A stretch of 64,000 nt of DNA, from assembly GCA_028866575.1 (NCBI GenBank), contig JAGWHU010000001.1, positions 197 through 64,196 on the forward strand, given 5' to 3'. Source of the DNA: Candidatus Micrarchaeota archaeon (lineage in GTDB: Archaea; Micrarchaeota; Micrarchaeia; Micrarchaeales; Micrarchaeaceae). The translations under genes were made by a program, and so were the position numbers. Positions 1,898-63,786 of this stretch are shown piece after piece. The notes beneath the pieces were generated by a model, which had not been told where the DNA came from, did not search any database, and was given only the letters and a program-made list of their open reading frames with translations. Each line of letters starts with the position of its first letter. Within the stretch, counting starts at the first letter, position 1.

Positions 1898-2635
1898 TTA
1901 AGCATACATCGATGGGCCCGTGCTGTCCACAGTCTTCTTGTAATTGTCGTGCGTTTCCTTGTGCTTGTTTATCAGCTCCCTTATTTTTACCTCCACAGCT
2001 TTAGCCTCCTTCTCCAGCTCAGCCACGTCTATATTGAGGTTCATGAGCTTGTTTATGCTTTTTATCGCTATTTCAGCATATATGGGATTTATCACGTTCT
2101 GCTTCACCGGTACCATTATGTCTATCGCATTCAGTGAGTTTATGGAGGACCTGATGAGCAGCATGGCGCTTACTCCTGTTGCTACGCCCTCGTTTATGGA
2201 CTTAAGTCCTGCGTCCTGCGCCTTCTTCAGCGACTTGGAATTTGAAGCAACCACGAAAGGAGTGTCGTTCCCGTCCTGCTGCATAGGTATGCCACCAATC
2301 GAATATACGTCGGTGATTCCGTTTTTCTTTATGAAATCGTACACCGAATCGCTGAGCGCGGATACGAGCTCTATGGTTATTGCAAACTCTGCAAATATCG
2401 TTATGATCCTCTCTTTCTCGGAGCAATACACGCGTATAGGCGGCATCGGCTGGCTCTTGTGTATTGAGATCAGCGGCGGAAAGTTTTCGCTTTCCATGTA
2501 GCCCACGTATTTCATCTGCAGCTTGTCTATCATGTAGCTTATTGTCATTGGTCCGACTAGCCCCGCGCCAGGAAACCCCTCTATGAAAGTATAGCCTTTG
2601 AAGTTTTTGTCCTCGAAAAGTTTTATCTCGATCAT
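1898..2635 (-). CDS. PAC2-family protein (proteasome assembly chaperone-like, ATP-grasp superfamily)
   Basis: 245 aa. N-terminal …FIEGFPGAGLVGPMTISYMIDKL… matches the PAC2/DUF75 signature (GxPGxGxVG). Paralog of the 59740-60537 product. Confidence 0.7.
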   Translation of the reverse strand: MIEIKLFEDKNFKGYTFIEGFPGAGLVGPMTISYMIDKLQMKYVGYMESENFPPLISIHKSQPMPPIRVYCSEKERIITIFAEFAITIELVSALSDSVYDFIKKNGITDVYSIGGIPMQQDGNDTPFVVASNSKSLKKAQDAGLKSINEGVATGVSAMLLIRSSINSLNAIDIMVPVKQNVINPIYAEIAIKSINKLMNLNIDVAELEKEAKAVEVKIRELINKHKETHDNYKKTVDSTGPSMYA

Positions 2636-2813: not shown

Positions 2814-3038
2814 ATGGCAGAAAGAATAGGCTCAGAAAGGCTACAAAGAGAAGACGGATATCTTTACTTCCTAGGTAAGGATGGCTTCGTATGGAGGACT
2901 CCAATGAAGACAAATCCAAGAGGCCGTAAGGCAAAGATTGGGAGTGAAAAGATAAGGAGGGAACAGGGATTCCTCTACTTCATAGACAAGAGCGGATATG
3001 TAGCAAGGGCAAAAATGAACAGGAAGGGAAGGAGATAA
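2814..3038 (+). CDS. small basic protein (74 aa) composed of two tandem ~32-aa repeats
   Basis: ERLQREDGYLYFLGKDGFVWRTPMKTNPRGRKAKIG is repeated as EKIRREQGFLYFIDKSGYVARAKMNRKGRR. Lys/Arg-rich. Confidence 0.5.
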   Translation: MAERIGSERLQREDGYLYFLGKDGFVWRTPMKTNPRGRKAKIGSEKIRREQGFLYFIDKSGYVARAKMNRKGRR

Positions 3039-3102
3039 TTAATTACTTTTTCTTTTATTCCTATTTTTTATATTTTTTCTGTGATAGTTAACCAGTGGTC
3101 TG

Positions 3103-5533: not shown

Positions 5534-5694
5534 CCTATCAACCTAAAATAAGTAGACTAATTTCTCTGTCAACGTTTTTAGCCTTATTGCCAATGCTTGC
5601 AGTGCATGTGCATATATTGGATATAAGCATGCATGCAATTTTTGTATCTGATTATCGGTTTAAAGCATAAGGTTTTAAATACCTTGAAAATAAC

Positions 5695-5711
5695 TTATAA
5701 CTGAGTTATAA
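5695..5711 (+). promoter_or_regulatory. Perfect 7-bp inverted repeat TTATAAC-TGA-GTTATAA overlapping the TATA region ~25-35 bp upstream of sufB; candidate operator
   Basis: Seen directly in the sequence. The 5600-5640 stretch upstream is additionally rich in GCATGC palindromes. Confidence 0.45.
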
Positions 5712-5731
5712 TTATAGCAAGAGGTGCATCT

Positions 5732-20282: not shown

Positions 20283-20419
20283 TGGGGTCGCTGGGATTTG
20301 AACCCAGATTTGCAGGTTACTTCATATTTTTCTGTATTCCAGATCTTAATCATCGCGTTTGCTCAATATACATATAAACATCTGGAGCCTGCCGCGCTGC
20401 CAAGTTACGCTACAACCCC
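20283..20419 (-). tRNA. tRNA-Trp (anticodon CCA) with a ~63-nt intron at the canonical 37/38 position
   Basis: Acceptor GGGGTTG/CGACCCC. D-arm GCGT-loop-GCGC. Anticodon stem GCAGG/CCTGC with loop CTCCAGA interrupted by the intron. T-arm CTGGG-TTCAAAT-CCCAG. Confidence 0.7.
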
Positions 20420-50927: not shown

Positions 50928-51037
50928 GGGTCCATAGCTCAGCCTGGTCAGAGCGGCTGGCTCTTAACCAGTAGGTCGGGGGTCCAAAGTAAAATTTTGG
51001 CTAGTGCTGAATTTTAGAGGAAATCCCCCTGGACCCG
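50928..51037 (+). tRNA. tRNA-Lys (anticodon CUU) with a ~35-nt intron inside the T-loop (non-canonical position)
   Basis: Acceptor GGGTCCA/TGGACCC. D-arm GCTC…GAGC. Anticodon arm GCTGG-CTCTTAA-CCAGT. T-stem GGGGG/CCCCC encloses 42 nt instead of 7. Confidence 0.65.
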
Positions 51038-59442: not shown

Positions 59443-59601
59443 TTCAGTAATATTTTCCGTGTATTGTATTTAGGCTTTTCTGTTTTGATTCGGTTTCGCG
59501 ACTTCATTATGGCCAGTCATGCCATTTACTGCAGCGTTTTATTATGTCATTAGCGGAAGTGAGGCGCGTGGGAGCTGATTCTTTAGGAAAAAATCCGTTT
59601 A

Positions 59602-59674
59602 TGCGGGCACCGGGATTTGAACCCGGGTTGCAGCCTTGGGAAGGCCGCGTCCTACCAGGCTAGACTATACCCGC
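59602..59674 (-). tRNA. tRNA-Gly (anticodon CCC)
   Basis: 73 nt. Acceptor GCGGGTA/TGCCCGC. Anticodon arm CGGCC-TTCCCAA-GGCTG. T-arm CCGGG-TTCAAAT-CCCGG. Confidence 0.75.
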
Positions 59675-59739
59675 AATTTAAATAGTATTATAGGAAGCAG
59701 GTTTTGCGGCACTGTGCATAGTTCCCGCATAGAACATGG

Positions 59740-60537
59740 TCACCTTATGTATGATGGCCTACCTTCACTCTCGCTGCCCCTTTCCATAGGATACTGCTGT
59801 ACGTTTCCGACCTGCTTCTCGAGCTCGGTTATGGCCTTGGCAGTCCTTTCTATTATCTTGTCGAGCTCGGAAGTGTTGACCTTCAGATTGAGTTTCTTTG
59901 ACAGCTGTATGATTACGGCCTTGGCCGCACTTGCGTCCACATTGAGAAGGCTGGTTTCCCCCATGAGGCATATAGCATCAGTCTTTGTCATCTTCGCGAA
60001 TGCGATTATCATTCCTGCGGATCCCCATATCATGCCCTTTGACTTCCCAAAGACCACGTCGGTATCCTTGAATTGTCCTATCACTTTTTTATCCGTTGCG
60101 TTGCCGAATACCCTTGGATTTATCCCCATCCCGCTGCCTATGTTGTATCCCCCTATGGTGTATATGAACCTGCCGCCGAGCCGCTCCTTGAAAAACTCGA
60201 CTATCTTGGAGTTTACCTCATACTGCCCTTCAGGAGTAACGGCCTGCGCATCCCCCGTAAGTATTACTATGTCGCTTTCTGACTGCTTCTTCGCCTTTAT
60301 TAGGTAGAACCTGTTGTTCACCAGCCTTATTCCGCCGTTTTTAAGCATGACTACCTGGTGCGGAAAATGTGGCGAGTACAGCGTTGCGAATTTTTTTGCG
60401 CCGAACTCCCTTCTCAGGTGCTCGGCTACGAGCTTGCCCACGTTGCCTATGCCCGGAAGCCCGACTACAAGCACTGGCCTGTTCGGCTTGATTCCTTTTT
60501 TCATCTTTATTATGGTCTTGTCCAGCATGTCAGGCAC
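59740..60537 (-). CDS. PAC2-family protein (second paralog)
   Basis: 265 aa. PVLVVGLPGIGNVGKLVAEHL signature. Sits in the conserved position downstream of aIF2-alpha. Confidence 0.7.
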   Translation of the reverse strand: MPDMLDKTIIKMKKGIKPNRPVLVVGLPGIGNVGKLVAEHLRREFGAKKFATLYSPHFPHQVVMLKNGGIRLVNNRFYLIKAKKQSESDIVILTGDAQAVTPEGQYEVNSKIVEFFKERLGGRFIYTIGGYNIGSGMGINPRVFGNATDKKVIGQFKDTDVVFGKSKGMIWGSAGMIIAFAKMTKTDAICLMGETSLLNVDASAAKAVIIQLSKKLNLKVNTSELDKIIERTAKAITELEKQVGNVQQYPMERGSESEGRPSYIR

Positions 60538-61315
60538 TTATGGTAGATAGTATATCCTCGTTAGCCTTCTTTAGCTTTTCTTTTTCCATTTCGAATACCC
60601 CGTTCAGCAGCTTGCTTTTTATGAGCTCTTCTACCTTCTTTATCTTTTCTTCTGCTGTAGAATAGTTGTCACCCTCGGCCATGAGCCTGTATTTCGGGGC
60701 GCCTATGTATTTCACGCTCACATCCATACCTTTCACCAGCCCCATTATGCCCTTGAGCTCTGTCGCCCCCGAAAGCGTGTTGAACGTGTATATCGTAGCT
60801 ATATATGACACAAGGTACTTTTTTTGCTTTTTGTTTGATTCGAGCACTTTCAGTACCGATTCCTTGAGCTTTTTTGGCAGTTTTGACTGGTTGAACTCCT
60901 TTGTGTTGTCTGTCGCGTTCTGGACCAGATTGGTATAAGTCCCGAATTCTGAAATGGCTGTTTTTATCAGTTCGTCCTTGTTTTGGACCTCCTTTGCCAC
61001 CTTTATTGCTTGCATGAAAAGCGTCGACAATCTGCGCTCAAGATTATACGACCTTATCTTTTCCTTTGAATGTCCGGGTGAGACCCTTTTCAGGGATATG
61101 TCTATGGTGCCTTTTTCCCTGTCGTAAAATGTAACGGTGCATACTAGCTTCTGGCCTTCGTGTATGTGCTCCCTTATATTCTTGATCCATCCGGATGATA
61201 TCTCCCTTATTGGCAGGAATACCTCTAGGTCGTTGTACTCCGGAAGCCTGCAATAAGCCCCGAACTTGCTTATCTTAGTTACGTTGGCTATTACAAGCTC
61301 CCCAACCTTAGGGAT
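60530..61315 (-). CDS. eif2a: translation initiation factor aIF2 alpha subunit; no canonical start codon found
   Basis: Continuous minus-strand frame from just after TAA 61357-61355. N-terminal S1 domain …PKVGELVIANVTKISKFGAYCRLPEYNDLEVFLPIREISSGWIKNIREH…. C-terminal …VSVKYIGAPKYRLMAEG…. No ATG/GTG/TTG in frame before the TTG at ~61030. Best candidate start is ATC at 61315-61313 (M/I-PKVGELV). Confidence 0.65.
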   Translation of the reverse strand: MPKVGELVIANVTKISKFGAYCRLPEYNDLEVFLPIREISSGWIKNIREHIHEGQKLVCTVTFYDREKGTIDISLKRVSPGHSKEKIRSYNLERRLSTLFMQAIKVAKEVQNKDELIKTAISEFGTYTNLVQNATDNTKEFNQSKLPKKLKESVLKVLESNKKQKKYLVSYIATIYTFNTLSGATELKGIMGLVKGMDVSVKYIGAPKYRLMAEGDNYSTAEEKIKKVEELIKSKLLNGVFEMEKEKLKKANEDILSTISA

Positions 61316-61343
61316 ATTTTGATGATCCAGAGAATCACGGCTG

Positions 61344-61637
61344 CTATTGCAGCTTTATTTCTATTTTCTTCTTCGTCCTCGAACCGAATGTCCTGTCTAC
61401 CTTGTATTTGCACACCTTGCACTCGAGAAGCACCTTCTGCCGCTTCCCTAGCTTTTTGGGATGTATCTTTGGCTCTACACTTCCAACATAACCCCTTATG
61501 GCCCTGTTGTGCCTCCTTGTGGCCTTGCTTAAGGTGCGCTGCGGCCCTTTAGATGGCATTCTTATGGTATGAAGAGTATGCTTGTTGCATTTGGGGCAGT
61601 ATGTGTTTATTGTTTTGGTTATCTTCGTATAATCCAC
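61344..61637 (-). CDS. rpl44e: ribosomal protein L44e
   Basis: 97 aa. …NTYCPKCNKHTLH… and C-terminal CKVCKYK zinc ribbon. Confidence 0.7.
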   Translation of the reverse strand: MDYTKITKTINTYCPKCNKHTLHTIRMPSKGPQRTLSKATRRHNRAIRGYVGSVEPKIHPKKLGKRQKVLLECKVCKYKVDRTFGSRTKKKIEIKLQ

Positions 61638-62153
61638 CTAGATTTTCTCACATATTGTATTTTCTATTAAATATTTTATATCCTGCTCGTTTTCGGTGTT
61701 TACGATCTGGTCCTTTGCGAGGGGGCCTATCTTGTTTCCTGATGGTAATATTATTTCCGGTATGTCCTTGATTGATTTGAGTTCGGATACGATGTGCTTC
61801 TCTTGTATCGTAAAATCAAGCCTTTCCGATTTTACTGTTTGCAGCAGCCTGTTATAGAATTCTGTTTCGTTACTACTTATAGGTTGCGGTAATTGTTTGT
61901 TATAGGCAACATAAATAAGTATTTTTTGTTTGCGCTTCTCGAAGAAGTCATTCAGAAGTTTAATTGAAATTTCCTTCGTGTAGGTGCTGCCGGAATCATA
62001 GTTTATGTCATTTATGAATTTTATGGAATCTTCGTAGAATGTTTTCGGCACCAATAACAACTGGTTGGTCTGTTTTTCTTTCTGGAATGCCTGCCAAAGA
62101 TAATCATATGTTACGTTGTCACTCATCATAGCACCTACACACCACAATTCCAC
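61638..62153 (-). CDS. GINS subunit (Gins51/Sld5-like)
   Basis: 171 aa. N-terminal …YDYLWQAFQKEKQTNQLLLVPKTFYED… matches archaeal GINS N-termini. AT-rich gene. Confidence 0.45.
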   Translation of the reverse strand: MELWCVGAMMSDNVTYDYLWQAFQKEKQTNQLLLVPKTFYEDSIKFINDINYDSGSTYTKEISIKLLNDFFEKRKQKILIYVAYNKQLPQPISSNETEFYNRLLQTVKSERLDFTIQEKHIVSELKSIKDIPEIILPSGNKIGPLAKDQIVNTENEQDIKYLIENTICEKI

Positions 62154-62257
62154 TATTCGTGGTGTTTTATATATTATATGATATTTATTAAAAGAACATT
62201 AAAATTTTATTATACCCAAAACCGGAAAGAAATATTACCGGAAGTGTAAGGTCATAA

Positions 62258-62332
62258 TAGCGAGGAATGGATTTGAACCATTGATCTCCGGGTTATGAGC
62301 CCGGCGGGCACTCCAGACTACCCTACCTCGCT
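62258..62332 (-). tRNA. initiator tRNA-Met (anticodon CAU)
   Basis: A1:U72 pair. Acceptor AGCGAGG/CCTCGCT. Three G:C pairs in anticodon stem CCGGG-CTCATAA-CCCGG. T-arm AATGG-TTCAAAT-CCATT. Confidence 0.7.
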
Positions 62333-62422
62333 AACATATAATATAAGAAACAACCCTTATTTAGGTTTTCCTATACAACAATTAACAAATAACACAAAAC
62401 ATCAAAAAACCAAAGTGAGTTT

Positions 62423-63160
62423 ATGATAAAAACAGCCATAATCATAGCAGGCGGGGAAAGCACCAGGCTAAAGCCGCTAACCGACGAAAAGCCGAAGACA
62501 ATGATACCTGTCAACGGCAAACCCATACTCTATTGGATAATAAAATGGCTGAAGCACCACAAGATAAGACATATCGTCCTCGGCGTCGGGTACAAAAAGG
62601 AAAAAATATACGAATTCATGGAAGAAAACCGCAACTTCAAAATGGAAGTTGATTTCAGCGAAGACAAAATAAGCGGTGGTGGAACAGCACATGCCTTCAG
62701 ATGCGCAATCGGGGATTATATACATGAGGGCAATTTCATAGGCATGAACTCAGACGAGCTCACCAACATGAACCTTTCAAGGCTCATCAAGAAGCATGAG
62801 AGGTACAAGCCACTGGTTACAATGGCGCTTTCTCCATTCTACTGCAGATTCAGTGTAGTTAAGCTGCAGAAGGGGCTGAAGATAACTGATTTTGAATATG
62901 GTGAAAAATTATGGTCCGTGCCTGTTAGTATGGGCGTTTACGCCTTGAATAGGGGGATACTCGAATCGCTTCCCGAAAAAGGGTCGATAGAGGACAGCCT
63001 TTTCACACATCTTGCAACGAATAAGGGCAAAATAATAGGGGACATGTTAAACCGCAACGAAACCTGGGTCAGCGTCAACACACAGAAAGACATAAAAGAA
63101 GCTGATGCGTTCATAAAGTCGCTTTACCTGGAAAAGGCAACAAAAACACGCAAAAAATAA
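62423..63160 (+). CDS. sugar-phosphate nucleotidyltransferase (NTP-transferase domain)
   Basis: 245 aa. N-terminal AIIIAGGESTRLKPLT…KPKTMIPV signature. Confidence 0.7.
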   Translation: MIKTAIIIAGGESTRLKPLTDEKPKTMIPVNGKPILYWIIKWLKHHKIRHIVLGVGYKKEKIYEFMEENRNFKMEVDFSEDKISGGGTAHAFRCAIGDYIHEGNFIGMNSDELTNMNLSRLIKKHERYKPLVTMALSPFYCRFSVVKLQKGLKITDFEYGEKLWSVPVSMGVYALNRGILESLPEKGSIEDSLFTHLATNKGKIIGDMLNRNETWVSVNTQKDIKEADAFIKSLYLEKATKTRKK

Positions 63161-63213
63161 GATACCATTATAAATTTGTAAGTACTAATGATGAAAATAC
63201 TATTTGTTCAGGG

Positions 63214-63786
63214 TTGACGCAAATGAGCATGTATAAGCAGTTAAAGCAAACAATGGAATCCGAATATAAGAACAGGTCAGACGAATACAAGACGCGCATA
63301 ATAAAATGGAATGCAGAGTCTTCGATAACGCGCGTGGATAAGCCGACCAACATCGCTAGAGCAAGGGAGCTAGGTTACAAGGCAAAGGAGGGTGTCATAA
63401 TAGTGAGGGTGAAGCTTAAGGGCGGATCTAAAAAGAGAAAGCACGCGGCAGGTGGAAGAAAGCCATCAAAAAGCGGAAGGTATTTCACCAAATCCAAGTC
63501 GCTCCAGGCAATAGCAGAGGAGCGCGCGGCAAGGAAGTTCACTAATTTTGAGCCACTCAATTCATATTTCGTAGGGGCCGCAGGCTCAAGGAGGTTCTAC
63601 GAGGTTATACTGCTCAACAAAGGCGACAGAACAATAATTTCCGACCCGCAATACAGGAACGTTGCAAGGCAAAACGGGAGGGCATACAGGGGCCTGACAT
63701 CCTCAGGGAAGAGGCACAGGGGGATAATAAGGAAGCGTTTCGGATCGCACAAGTTGAGGCCTAGCCAGAACAGGTTCAAGATTTGA
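63214..63786 (+). CDS. rpl15e: ribosomal protein L15e
   Basis: 190 aa. …ARARELGYKAKEGVIIVRVKLKGG… and basic C-terminus typical of L15e. Confidence 0.7.
   Translation: MTQMSMYKQLKQTMESEYKNRSDEYKTRIIKWNAESSITRVDKPTNIARARELGYKAKEGVIIVRVKLKGGSKKRKHAAGGRKPSKSGRYFTKSKSLQAIAEERAARKFTNFEPLNSYFVGAAGSRRFYEVILLNKGDRTIISDPQYRNVARQNGRAYRGLTSSGKRHRGIIRKRFGSHKLRPSQNRFKI

What the first reader, a model, noticed from the sequence alone, without database searches (positions are those of the whole stretch)
60530..61637. aIF2-alpha has no ATG/GTG/TTG start; S27e and Nop10 are absent from their conserved positions
The S1-domain N-terminus of aIF2-alpha (…PKVGELVIANV…) lies in one continuous frame with the C-terminal domain. 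The frame is closed by a TAA just upstream (61357-61355). It contains no canonical start until a TTG about 100 codons in. The plausible initiator is ATC (61315-61313), giving M-PKVGELV, which matches other aIF2-alpha N-termini. In most archaea the order is L44e–S27e–aIF2alpha–Nop10–PAC2-like. Here L44e ends 29 bp before the candidate start, and the aIF2-alpha stop overlaps the PAC2-like gene start. So neither S27e nor Nop10 is in place.
Basis: seen in the sequence. Interest (0 to 1): 0.6.

Follow-up and report, generated by a model that had tools for sequence, protein, structure and literature searches.

The report
aIF2-alpha gene starting at CTG
In this Micrarchaeota genome the gene for translation initiation factor aIF2-alpha has a CTG where all 80 related genomes compared have a canonical start (usually ATG), so it probably starts at a rare near-cognate codon, and the "missing" S27e and Nop10 genes reflect a loss shared by the whole lineage.

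Summary
On the minus strand, the aIF2-alpha frame (stop TGA 60532-60530) opens after TAA 61357-61355. It has no ATG, GTG or TTG for 108 codons, so the whole S1 domain lies upstream of any canonical start.

In all 80 related Micrarchaeota genomes a canonical start, usually ATG, lies five codons upstream of that position. It aligns exactly with CTG 61330-61328 (M-[E/D]-x-Q-N-[I/V]-P-K-V-G). NCBI already annotates the protein from this CTG (MDE1870679.1, 266 aa).

Two assemblies of other sequencing runs reproduce the CTG. An SD-like GTGAT lies 3 nt upstream of it, and the L44e stop lies 13 nt upstream. The S1 region shows no loss of constraint. The best reading is a lineage-specific ATG-to-CTG substitution, read as a near-cognate start.

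S27e and Nop10 are absent from the window and from all 80 related loci. All share the compact order tRNA-Met, GINS, L44e, aIF2-alpha, PAC2, tRNA-Gly. The closed Micrarchaeota genome Mia14 was already reported to lack S27e, and its supplementary table also scores Nop10, Gar1 and Cbf5 as absent.

This is a modest curiosity rather than a new system.

The parts
62257..62333 (-). tRNA-Met (anticodon CAT) with initiator features, just upstream of the operon
   Evidence: ARAGORN and Rfam both call it. Read by eye, the sequence shows an A1:U72 pair and a GGG/CCC anticodon stem. A tRNA-Met(CAT) occupies the same position in 38 of 40 related loci scanned.
61638..62153 (-). GINS-like gene (Gins15/Sld5-type). 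The true start is probably ATG 62129 or 62126.
   Evidence: The Pfam Sld5 match is weak (E 0.004, below the curated cut-off). tblastn finds the gene at the same position in nearly all related loci. It corresponds to the 'G' of the G-LSIN supercluster.
61344..61637 (-). Ribosomal protein L44e (eL42), GTG start directly after the GINS stop, stop TAG 61346-61344
   Evidence: Pfam Ribosomal_L44, E 8.3e-11; sequence read.
61334..61338 (-). SD-like GTGAT, 3 nt upstream of the CTG
   Evidence: Sequence. SD-like 4-mers are enriched upstream of the window's genes (28 of 48, against 12.1 +/- 2.9 in shuffles), mostly 2-7 nt from the start. Close relatives carry GGT(G/A)-type motifs in the same spacer.
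61328..61330 (-). CTG, the most likely initiation codon of aIF2-alpha (near-cognate)
   Evidence: It aligns with the canonical start codon (mostly ATG, some GTG) of all 80 relatives. The NCBI protein MDE1870679.1 (266 aa, MDHQNIPKVG...) starts here. Logan assemblies L001 and L002 carry the identical sequence.
61313..61315 (-).
   Evidence: The relatives have Ile/Val codons here, preceded by conserved M-[E/D]-x-Q-N.
60530..61330 (-). aIF2-alpha coding sequence (266 codons plus TGA): S1 domain followed by the eIF2-alpha middle and C-terminal domains
   Evidence: Pfam S1 plus EIF_2_alpha. PDB matches 1yz6, 3aev and 2aho at E about 1e-24. 220 homologues, the best ones from Micrarchaeota.
59740..60528 (-). 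PAC2-family gene (COG2047-type), ATG 1 nt after the aIF2-alpha stop
   Evidence: Pfam PAC2, E 4.5e-38. Logan calls a 262-aa product. It sits within 0-25 nt of the aIF2-alpha stop in most relatives.
59601..59675 (-). tRNA-Gly (CCC), closing the conserved block
   Evidence: The same tRNA follows PAC2 in most relatives.

Best explanation
The window comes from a Candidatus Micrarchaeota (DPANN archaeon) genome. It carries the compact operon GINS, L44e, aIF2-alpha, PAC2. This is a reduced form of the archaeal Gins15 + L44E-S27E-aIF2alpha-Nop10 + COG2047 supercluster.

In this one lineage the aIF2-alpha start codon has changed from ATG to CTG (61330-61328). I infer that translation still begins there. 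The ordinary initiator Met-tRNA (anticodon CAU; its gene lies about 0.9 kb upstream) would pair with CUG despite a first-position mismatch. Two features would help. An SD-like GTGAT lies 3 nt upstream. The L44e stop codon lies only 13 nt upstream, so ribosomes arrive locally and some termination-reinitiation is possible. The product would be the full 266-aa protein MDHQNIPKVG..., probably made at a lower rate than in relatives.

The lack of S27e and Nop10 is a separate, older event. Both genes were deleted from this cluster in the ancestor of the Micrarchaeota sampled here. In the one closed genome examined in the literature they are absent from the whole genome, along with Cbf5 and Gar1.

Shown: the sequence, the alignment with orthologous start codons, the shared gene order, the reproducibility of the CTG, and the constraint on the S1 region. 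Inferred: that CUG is the codon actually used, that Met is inserted, and that SD pairing or coupling compensates.
For: 1. There is no ATG/GTG/TTG between TAA 61357-61355 and TTG 61030.
2. All 80 GTDB-representative Micrarchaeota loci have a canonical start, mostly ATG, at the codon aligned with this CTG. The DNA alignment of the 8 closest shows ...spacer-ATG-GA(A/T)... against ...spacer-CTG-GAT....
3. The residues downstream of the CTG (D-H-Q-N-I) match the conserved M-[E/D]-x-Q-N-[I/V] of the relatives.
4. The NCBI protein MDE1870679.1 is exactly the CTG-initiated 266-aa product.
5. Logan assemblies of runs SRR32006840 and SRR32006850 are 100% identical to the window over 4.8 and 4.0 kb, CTG included. 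Their gene caller truncated the gene to 161 aa.
6. The S1 region upstream of the first canonical start is strongly constrained. pN is 0.05-0.11 against pS 0.63-0.92. It has 3 private residues, within the 0-3 range seen in relatives. The protein keeps the residue shared by all 36 aligned sequences at each of the 55 invariant columns.
7. SD-like motifs are enriched upstream of the window's genes at 2-7 nt spacing, and GTGAT lies 3 nt from the CTG.
8. Short-range reinitiation after a stop codon is documented in archaea. It is reduced but not abolished at about +14 nt (PMC10666635).
9. For S27e and Nop10: there are no hits in the window or in any locus, and the spacers are too short to hold a gene in nearly all loci. 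Mia14 lacks S27e according to the main text, and its Supplementary Data 4 scores Nop10, Gar1 and TruB/Cbf5 as 0.
Against: - There is no experimental evidence of initiation at this CTG. Reviews of archaeal initiation list only AUG, GUG and UUG as start codons.
- CUG is expected to be inefficient. From memory, the E. coli 64-codon study puts near-cognate codons at roughly 1% of AUG or less. quotes 0.3% for ATT.
- The 13-nt spacer falls in the range where coupling efficiency is gene-specific and reduced.
- The Logan runs may come from the same project or sample as the MAG. They exclude a single-assembly error but not a systematic one.
- The timing of the substitution cannot be resolved. The nearest relative is only about 80% identical, so the constraint tests cannot exclude a very recent inactivating mutation.
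- Genome-wide absence of S27e and Nop10 in this particular MAG was not tested. Only 64 kb was available.
Confidence: 0.75

Rival explanations
1. Initiation at ATC 61315-61313, the first reader's proposal, giving M-PKVGELV...
For: ATC is also a near-cognate codon, in frame and directly before the S1 domain. A 4-nt SD-like GATC lies 8 nt upstream.
Against: In the relatives this position is an ordinary Ile/Val codon inside the protein, five codons after the real start. The conserved Q-N before it is retained in the window. Solved aIF2-alpha proteins have 6-7 residues before the aligned Pro. The stronger SD-like GTGAT is 18 nt away from the ATC.
Confidence: 0.05
2. Only an N-terminally truncated protein is made, from the internal TTG 61030 or ATG 61015 (161-166 aa, lacking the S1 domain). 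The gene would then be a partly decayed aIF2-alpha. From memory of the structural literature, the C-terminal domain alone binds the gamma subunit, so a truncated form might retain some function.
For: These are the first canonical starts in the frame. Automatic gene calling on the Logan contigs produced exactly this 161-aa product (P0092).
Against: The 105 codons upstream are intact. They are even more conserved than the C-terminal part (pN 0.05-0.11 against 0.16-0.18) and show no excess of private substitutions. No SD-like motif was looked for upstream of the internal starts, and none is evident by eye in the 25 nt upstream of TTG 61030 printed. None of the 120 listed homologue clusters is naturally truncated in this way apart from this same sequence.
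Confidence: 0.08
3. A sequencing or consensus error, or a minority variant: the real population carries ATG.
For: A single A-to-C difference is all that separates this gene from the normal state seen in every relative.
Against: The MAG and two independently assembled runs give the same base, with 100% identity over 4-4.8 kb. The site is not a homopolymer or a low-complexity context.
Confidence: 0.07
4. Recoding at the end of L44e. The aIF2-alpha frame is the +1 frame of L44e and is open from 61354, so a +1 shift within the last three L44e codons or at its TAG would produce an L44e-aIF2alpha fusion, as in prfB-type frameshifting.
For: The frame relationship and the open +1 frame over the L44e stop are read directly from the sequence.
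Against: CTG-CAA-TAG-C offers no slippery re-pairing. The relatives have spacers of about 0 to 76 nt in no fixed phase, each with its own ATG and with in-frame stops, so nothing of the kind is conserved. A fusion of a 50S ribosomal protein with a 30S-acting factor is functionally implausible. A -1 shift from the short GTG 61338 frame was also examined and likewise has no slippery site.
Confidence: 0.02

Closest known systems
Archaeal aIF2-alpha (solved structures: Pyrococcus abyssi 1YZ6, P. horikoshii 3AEV, Saccharolobus solfataricus 2AHO)
   Same: It has the same three-part layout, with an N-terminal S1 barrel followed by the eIF2-alpha middle and C-terminal domains. Matches have E about 1e-24. 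With the CTG start, the N-terminal length before the conserved Pro is comparable.
   Different: The start codon is CTG rather than ATG, GTG or TTG. The protein itself shows nothing unusual.
PPsG-LSIN supercluster of Archaea (Gins15 + L44E-S27E-aIF2alpha-Nop10, followed by COG2047 in Euryarchaeota; Berthon et al. 2008, PMC2643942)
   Same: GINS, L44e, aIF2-alpha and the COG2047/PAC2-type gene occur in the same order and orientation and are tightly packed.
   Different: S27E and Nop10 are deleted. The spacers are 13 nt and 1 nt. This holds in essentially all 80 Micrarchaeota loci. The block is flanked by tRNA-Met(CAT) and tRNA-Gly(CCC).
Gene content of the closed Micrarchaeota genome 'Ca. Mancarchaeum acidiphilum' Mia14 (Golyshina et al. 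2017, PMC5498576)
   Same: Mia14 has L44E and aIF2-alpha and lacks S27e. Its supplementary table also scores Nop10, Gar1 and TruB/Cbf5 as 0. This matches the local absence seen here.
   Different: That paper reports gene content for one genome. It does not describe the local synteny or the start codon. Here the same absence from the locus is seen in 80 species-level genomes.
Near-cognate start codons on translation-factor genes (bacterial infC with AUU, autoregulated by IF3; from general knowledge)
   Same: A gene for an initiation factor carries a poor, non-canonical start codon.
   Different: In infC the unusual codon is conserved and is the basis of feedback. Here the CTG is confined to one lineage among 80 or more relatives, so there is no evidence of a selected regulatory role.

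Membership tests
aIF2-alpha / eIF2-alpha family | N-terminal S1 (OB-fold) domain | tested here: met
   Pfam PF00575, E 2.3e-09, residues 2-76.
aIF2-alpha / eIF2-alpha family | eIF2-alpha middle and C-terminal domains (PF07541), with sequence similarity to solved aIF2-alpha | tested here: met
   PF07541, E 8.4e-07. PDB 1yz6, 3aev and 2aho at E about 1e-24 over residues 5-238.
aIF2-alpha / eIF2-alpha family | Forms the aIF2 heterotrimer with gamma and beta and helps bind initiator Met-tRNA | not testable with these tools
   This needs biochemistry. The gamma and beta genes were not looked for in the window.
LSIN cluster (L44E-S27E-aIF2alpha-Nop10; PMC2643942) | L44E immediately upstream, in the same orientation | tested here: met
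   L44e lies at 61344-61637, 13 nt before the CTG.
LSIN cluster (L44E-S27E-aIF2alpha-Nop10; PMC2643942) | S27E between L44E and aIF2-alpha | tested here: not met
   The spacer is 13 nt. The seed HMM finds no S27e in the window or in the 80 loci.
LSIN cluster (L44E-S27E-aIF2alpha-Nop10; PMC2643942) | Nop10 directly downstream of aIF2-alpha | tested here: not met
   PAC2 starts 1 nt after the aIF2-alpha stop. There is no Nop10 hit in the window or in the loci.
LSIN cluster (L44E-S27E-aIF2alpha-Nop10; PMC2643942) | Association with Gins15 upstream and with COG2047 (ATP-grasp/PAC2-type) downstream | tested here: met
   PAC2, E 4.5e-38. The Sld5/GINS match is weak (E 0.004, below the cut-off), but the gene is conserved at this position in relatives.
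Autoregulated near-cognate start (infC-type feedback) | The non-canonical start codon is conserved among orthologues | tested here: not met
   All 80 relatives have a canonical start at the aligned codon, mostly ATG.
Autoregulated near-cognate start (infC-type feedback) | Expression responds to the level of the encoded factor | not testable with these tools
   This needs reporter or ribosome-profiling experiments.
Programmed +1 frameshift at a stop codon (prfB-type) | A conserved shift-prone site, a fixed frame relation to the upstream ORF, and no independent start in orthologues | tested here: not met
   The relatives have their own ATG and spacers of variable length and phase. CAA-TAG-C offers no slippery re-pairing.

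The most novel reading that the evidence does not exclude
The CTG is not a tolerated defect but a working feedback device. aIF2 takes part in start-codon selection, so translation of its alpha subunit from a near-cognate codon could tie aIF2-alpha synthesis to the current stringency of initiation. This would be an archaeal counterpart of infC (AUU) autoregulation. Alternatively, this reduced symbiont may have generally relaxed start-codon discrimination. Either reading would make CUG initiation in Archaea directly testable on a natural essential gene.
Probability: 0.06. Interest if true: 0.6.

Novelty: new member of a known kind. Interest (0 to 1): 0.3.

Why it matters
Reviews of archaeal initiation treat AUG, GUG and UUG as the start codons. 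A core, single-copy, strongly constrained initiation-factor gene whose only plausible start is CUG is therefore a clean natural test case for near-cognate initiation in Archaea.

It also has a practical side. Standard gene callers truncated the gene to 161 aa, which would count as a damaged or missing marker in MAG quality and phylogenomic pipelines.

The gene-order result extends a published single-genome observation (S27e, Nop10 and the rest of the H/ACA machinery missing from Mia14). It shows that the L44e-aIF2alpha-PAC2 junctions are collapsed in the same way in 80 Micrarchaeota species. That supports one ancestral deletion rather than repeated rearrangement.

Neither point changes current understanding of mechanism.

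Tried and rejected
- ATC 61315 as the start: rejected on the alignment with orthologues.
- A -1 shift from the short GTG 61338 frame, and a +1 shift at the L44e stop: no slippery site and no conservation.
- A genome-wide habit of non-canonical starts: aIF2-alpha is the only frame I take to be a real gene in the 64 kb window that lacks a canonical start, so there is no sign of one in this sample.
- Scanning JGI metagenome contigs for the exact junction with any base at the first codon position (TTCTNTGGATCATCAAAATATCCC): no match, so no ATG-bearing sister strain was found.
- Looking up the 266-aa protein in the contig index: not on record, because gene callers there do not allow CTG.
The only weak hits (E > 0.02) fell on the Zn-ribbon of L44e or inside large unrelated ORFs.
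- I ran no further search on S27e or Nop10. The 120 hits listed would come from the seed taxa and could not show presence or absence in Micrarchaeota.
- Literature searches for CUG starts in Archaea gave no experimental test. The only item was a Ribo-seq report that about 5% of newly found small ORFs in Methanosarcina mazei start with CTG.
Full report
**What is in the sequence**

On the minus strand the region holds four tightly packed genes.
- A GINS-like gene at 61638-62153. The Pfam Sld5 match is weak (E 0.004).
- Ribosomal protein L44e at 61344-61637 (PF00935, E 8.3e-11). Its GTG start directly follows the GINS stop.
- aIF2-alpha, ending at TGA 60532-60530 (S1, E 2.3e-09; EIF_2_alpha, E 8.4e-07).
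- A PAC2-family gene at 59740-60528 (E 4.5e-38).

tRNA-Met(CAT) at 62257-62333 and tRNA-Gly(CCC) at 59601-59675 flank the block.

The aIF2-alpha frame is closed upstream by TAA 61357-61355. It then reads SCNSSRDSLDHQNIPKVGELV.... It contains no ATG, GTG or TTG until TTG 61030-61028, 108 codons after that stop. Among the window's long open frames, this is the only one I take to be a real gene that lacks a canonical start.

**Which organism, and where the gene starts**

A protein search gave 220 homologues. The best are from Candidatus Micrarchaeota and Micrarchaeaceae MAGs. One NCBI entry is 100% identical and 266 aa long (P0001 = MDE1870679.1). It begins MDHQNIPKVG..., which can only come from using CTG 61330-61328 as the initiator.

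The closest relatives (73-81% identity) are almost all 266 aa and begin M-[E/D]-x-Q-N-[I/V]-P-K-V-G.

I fetched 80 species-representative Micrarchaeota loci. For each I walked the frame upstream from the match. Every one has a canonical start, mostly ATG and a few GTG, at the codon aligned with the window's CTG. The DNA of the eight closest relatives shows L44e-stop, a 10-19 nt spacer, then ATG-GA(A/T). The window shows L44e-stop, 13 nt, then CTG-GAT.

It is an ordinary Ile/Val codon in all relatives.

Solved aIF2-alpha structures (1yz6, 3aev, 2aho; E about 1e-24) carry the aligned Pro at about residue 7-8. That fits Pro7 with the CTG start, not Pro2 with the ATC start.

**Is the CTG real?**

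A 161-aa fragment with 100% identity (P0092) comes from Logan assemblies of other sequencing runs. It arises because the gene caller, finding no canonical start, fell back to an internal ATG.

The two contigs retrieved, from SRR32006840 and SRR32006850, are 100% identical to the window over 4783 and 3992 nt. Both contain the same ...GTGATTCTCTGGATCATC.... An error confined to one assembly is therefore excluded. I cannot tell whether these runs are independent samples of the population. A scan of JGI metagenome contigs for the junction, with any base at the first codon position, found nothing.

**Is the S1 domain still expressed?**

The 105 codons upstream of the first canonical start show pN 0.05-0.11 against saturated pS 0.63-0.92 in comparisons with seven relatives. 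They are more constrained than the C-terminal part, where pN is 0.16-0.18.

The window protein has 3 private residues in the N-terminal part and 2 in the C-terminal part. Relatives range over 0-3 and 0-8. It also keeps the shared residue at all 55 columns that are invariant across the 36 aligned sequences.

There is thus no sign of decay. This argues against a truncated product being the only product, unless the mutation is very recent.

**How it probably works**

This part is inferred.

The tRNA-Met upstream of the operon has an A1:U72 pair and a GGG/CCC anticodon stem. These are initiator hallmarks, read by eye. Its anticodon is the normal CAU, so CUG would be read with a first-position mismatch.

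SD-like 4-mers are enriched upstream of the window's genes (28 of 48, against 12.1 +/- 2.9 in shuffles), mostly 2-7 nt from the start. A GTGAT lies 3 nt before the CTG. Another gene in the window (1898-2635) has the same GTGAT + 3 nt + ATG arrangement.

The L44e stop lies 13 nt upstream of the CTG. Termination-reinitiation has been demonstrated in Haloferax and E. coli. It is local, and in the E. coli gene pairs tested a spacer of about +14 nt cut it by 40-80% without abolishing it. Spacers of 11-20 nt behave in a gene-specific way (PMC10666635).

SD positioning together with a high local supply of terminating ribosomes is the most economical way for a weak start codon to yield enough protein.

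Reviews list only AUG, GUG and UUG as archaeal start codons. The only archaeal data I found on CTG is a Ribo-seq report that about 5% of newly detected small ORFs in Methanosarcina mazei begin with CTG.

**S27e and Nop10**

Berthon et al. 2008 describe the L44E-S27E-aIF2alpha-Nop10 (LSIN) cluster. [quoted passage not shown]

HMMs built from seed S27e and Nop10 sequences found nothing credible among all ORFs of at least 30 aa in the window or in the 80 loci. The weak hits fell on the L44e zinc ribbon.

Measured spacers show the order GINS, L44e, aIF2-alpha, PAC2 in essentially every locus. The gap from L44e to aIF2-alpha is about 0 to 76 nt. The gap from aIF2-alpha to PAC2 is -5 to 81 nt in all but three loci (L056, L067, L077). 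The larger gaps in those three gave no Nop10 hit.

The absence is therefore shared across the sampled Micrarchaeota.

It is also already in the literature for the closed genome of Mia14. The main text states that S27e (arCOG04108) is absent. Supplementary Data 4 gives 0 for Nop10 (arCOG00906), Gar1 and TruB/Cbf5 in Mia14, while L44E and aIF2-alpha are present. That pattern points to loss of the whole H/ACA pseudouridylation machinery rather than relocation of Nop10.

I could not search the rest of this MAG.

**Verdict**

The gene does lack a canonical start. However, the initiator is almost certainly the CTG five codons upstream of the proposed ATC, and NCBI's annotation already uses it. The S27e and Nop10 gap is a lineage-wide loss that has largely been reported, not a local anomaly.

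What remains of interest is a natural case of an essential archaeal initiation-factor gene depending on a near-cognate CUG start. That CUG is confined to one lineage. A regulatory, infC-like role is conceivable but has no support from conservation.

Noticed in passing
window 62257-62333 (-); related loci L003-L081 at about 2900-3090 (+): The tRNA-Met(CAT) next to the aIF2-alpha operon has initiator features (A1:U72, GGG/CCC anticodon stem). A tRNA-Met(CAT) sits at the same place, about 0.9-1 kb upstream of aIF2-alpha, in 38 of 40 Micrarchaeota loci scanned. The initiator tRNA gene and the gene for a subunit of the factor that binds it therefore appear to be syntenic across the group. Initiator identity was checked by eye, and only in the window.
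   Followed up: partly
window 59601-59675 (-); related loci at about 5570-5720 (+): tRNA-Gly(CCC) follows the PAC2 gene in most related loci. The whole block tRNA-Met, GINS, L44e, aIF2-alpha, PAC2, tRNA-Gly is thus a conserved unit in these genomes.
   Followed up: partly
window 20283-20419 (-): Rfam reports a tRNA spanning 137 nt (50.1 bits) that ARAGORN did not call. It is probably an intron-containing tRNA gene.
   Followed up: no
window 50928-50986 (+): A borderline Rfam tRNA match of only 59 nt (30.2 bits against a gathering score of 29), not called by ARAGORN. It could be a truncated, split or unusual tRNA, or a chance match.
   Followed up: no
L056 4784-5030, L067 4799-5619, L077 4799-5804: Three related loci have 235-976 nt between aIF2-alpha and PAC2, where the others have only a few nucleotides. 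My Nop10 seed HMM gave no hit there. The content of these inserts was not identified.
   Followed up: no
L007 6659-6748 (+): ARAGORN calls a 90-nt 'tRNA-Stop' with anticodon TTA in one relative (SPRUCE 531 MAG). It may be a mis-called intron-containing tRNA or a suppressor-like tRNA. It was not examined.
   Followed up: no
window 63106-63786 (+): The first canonical start in the ribosomal protein L15e frame is TTG 63214, followed closely by two ATGs (MTQMSMYKQL...). The true start is uncertain.
   Followed up: no
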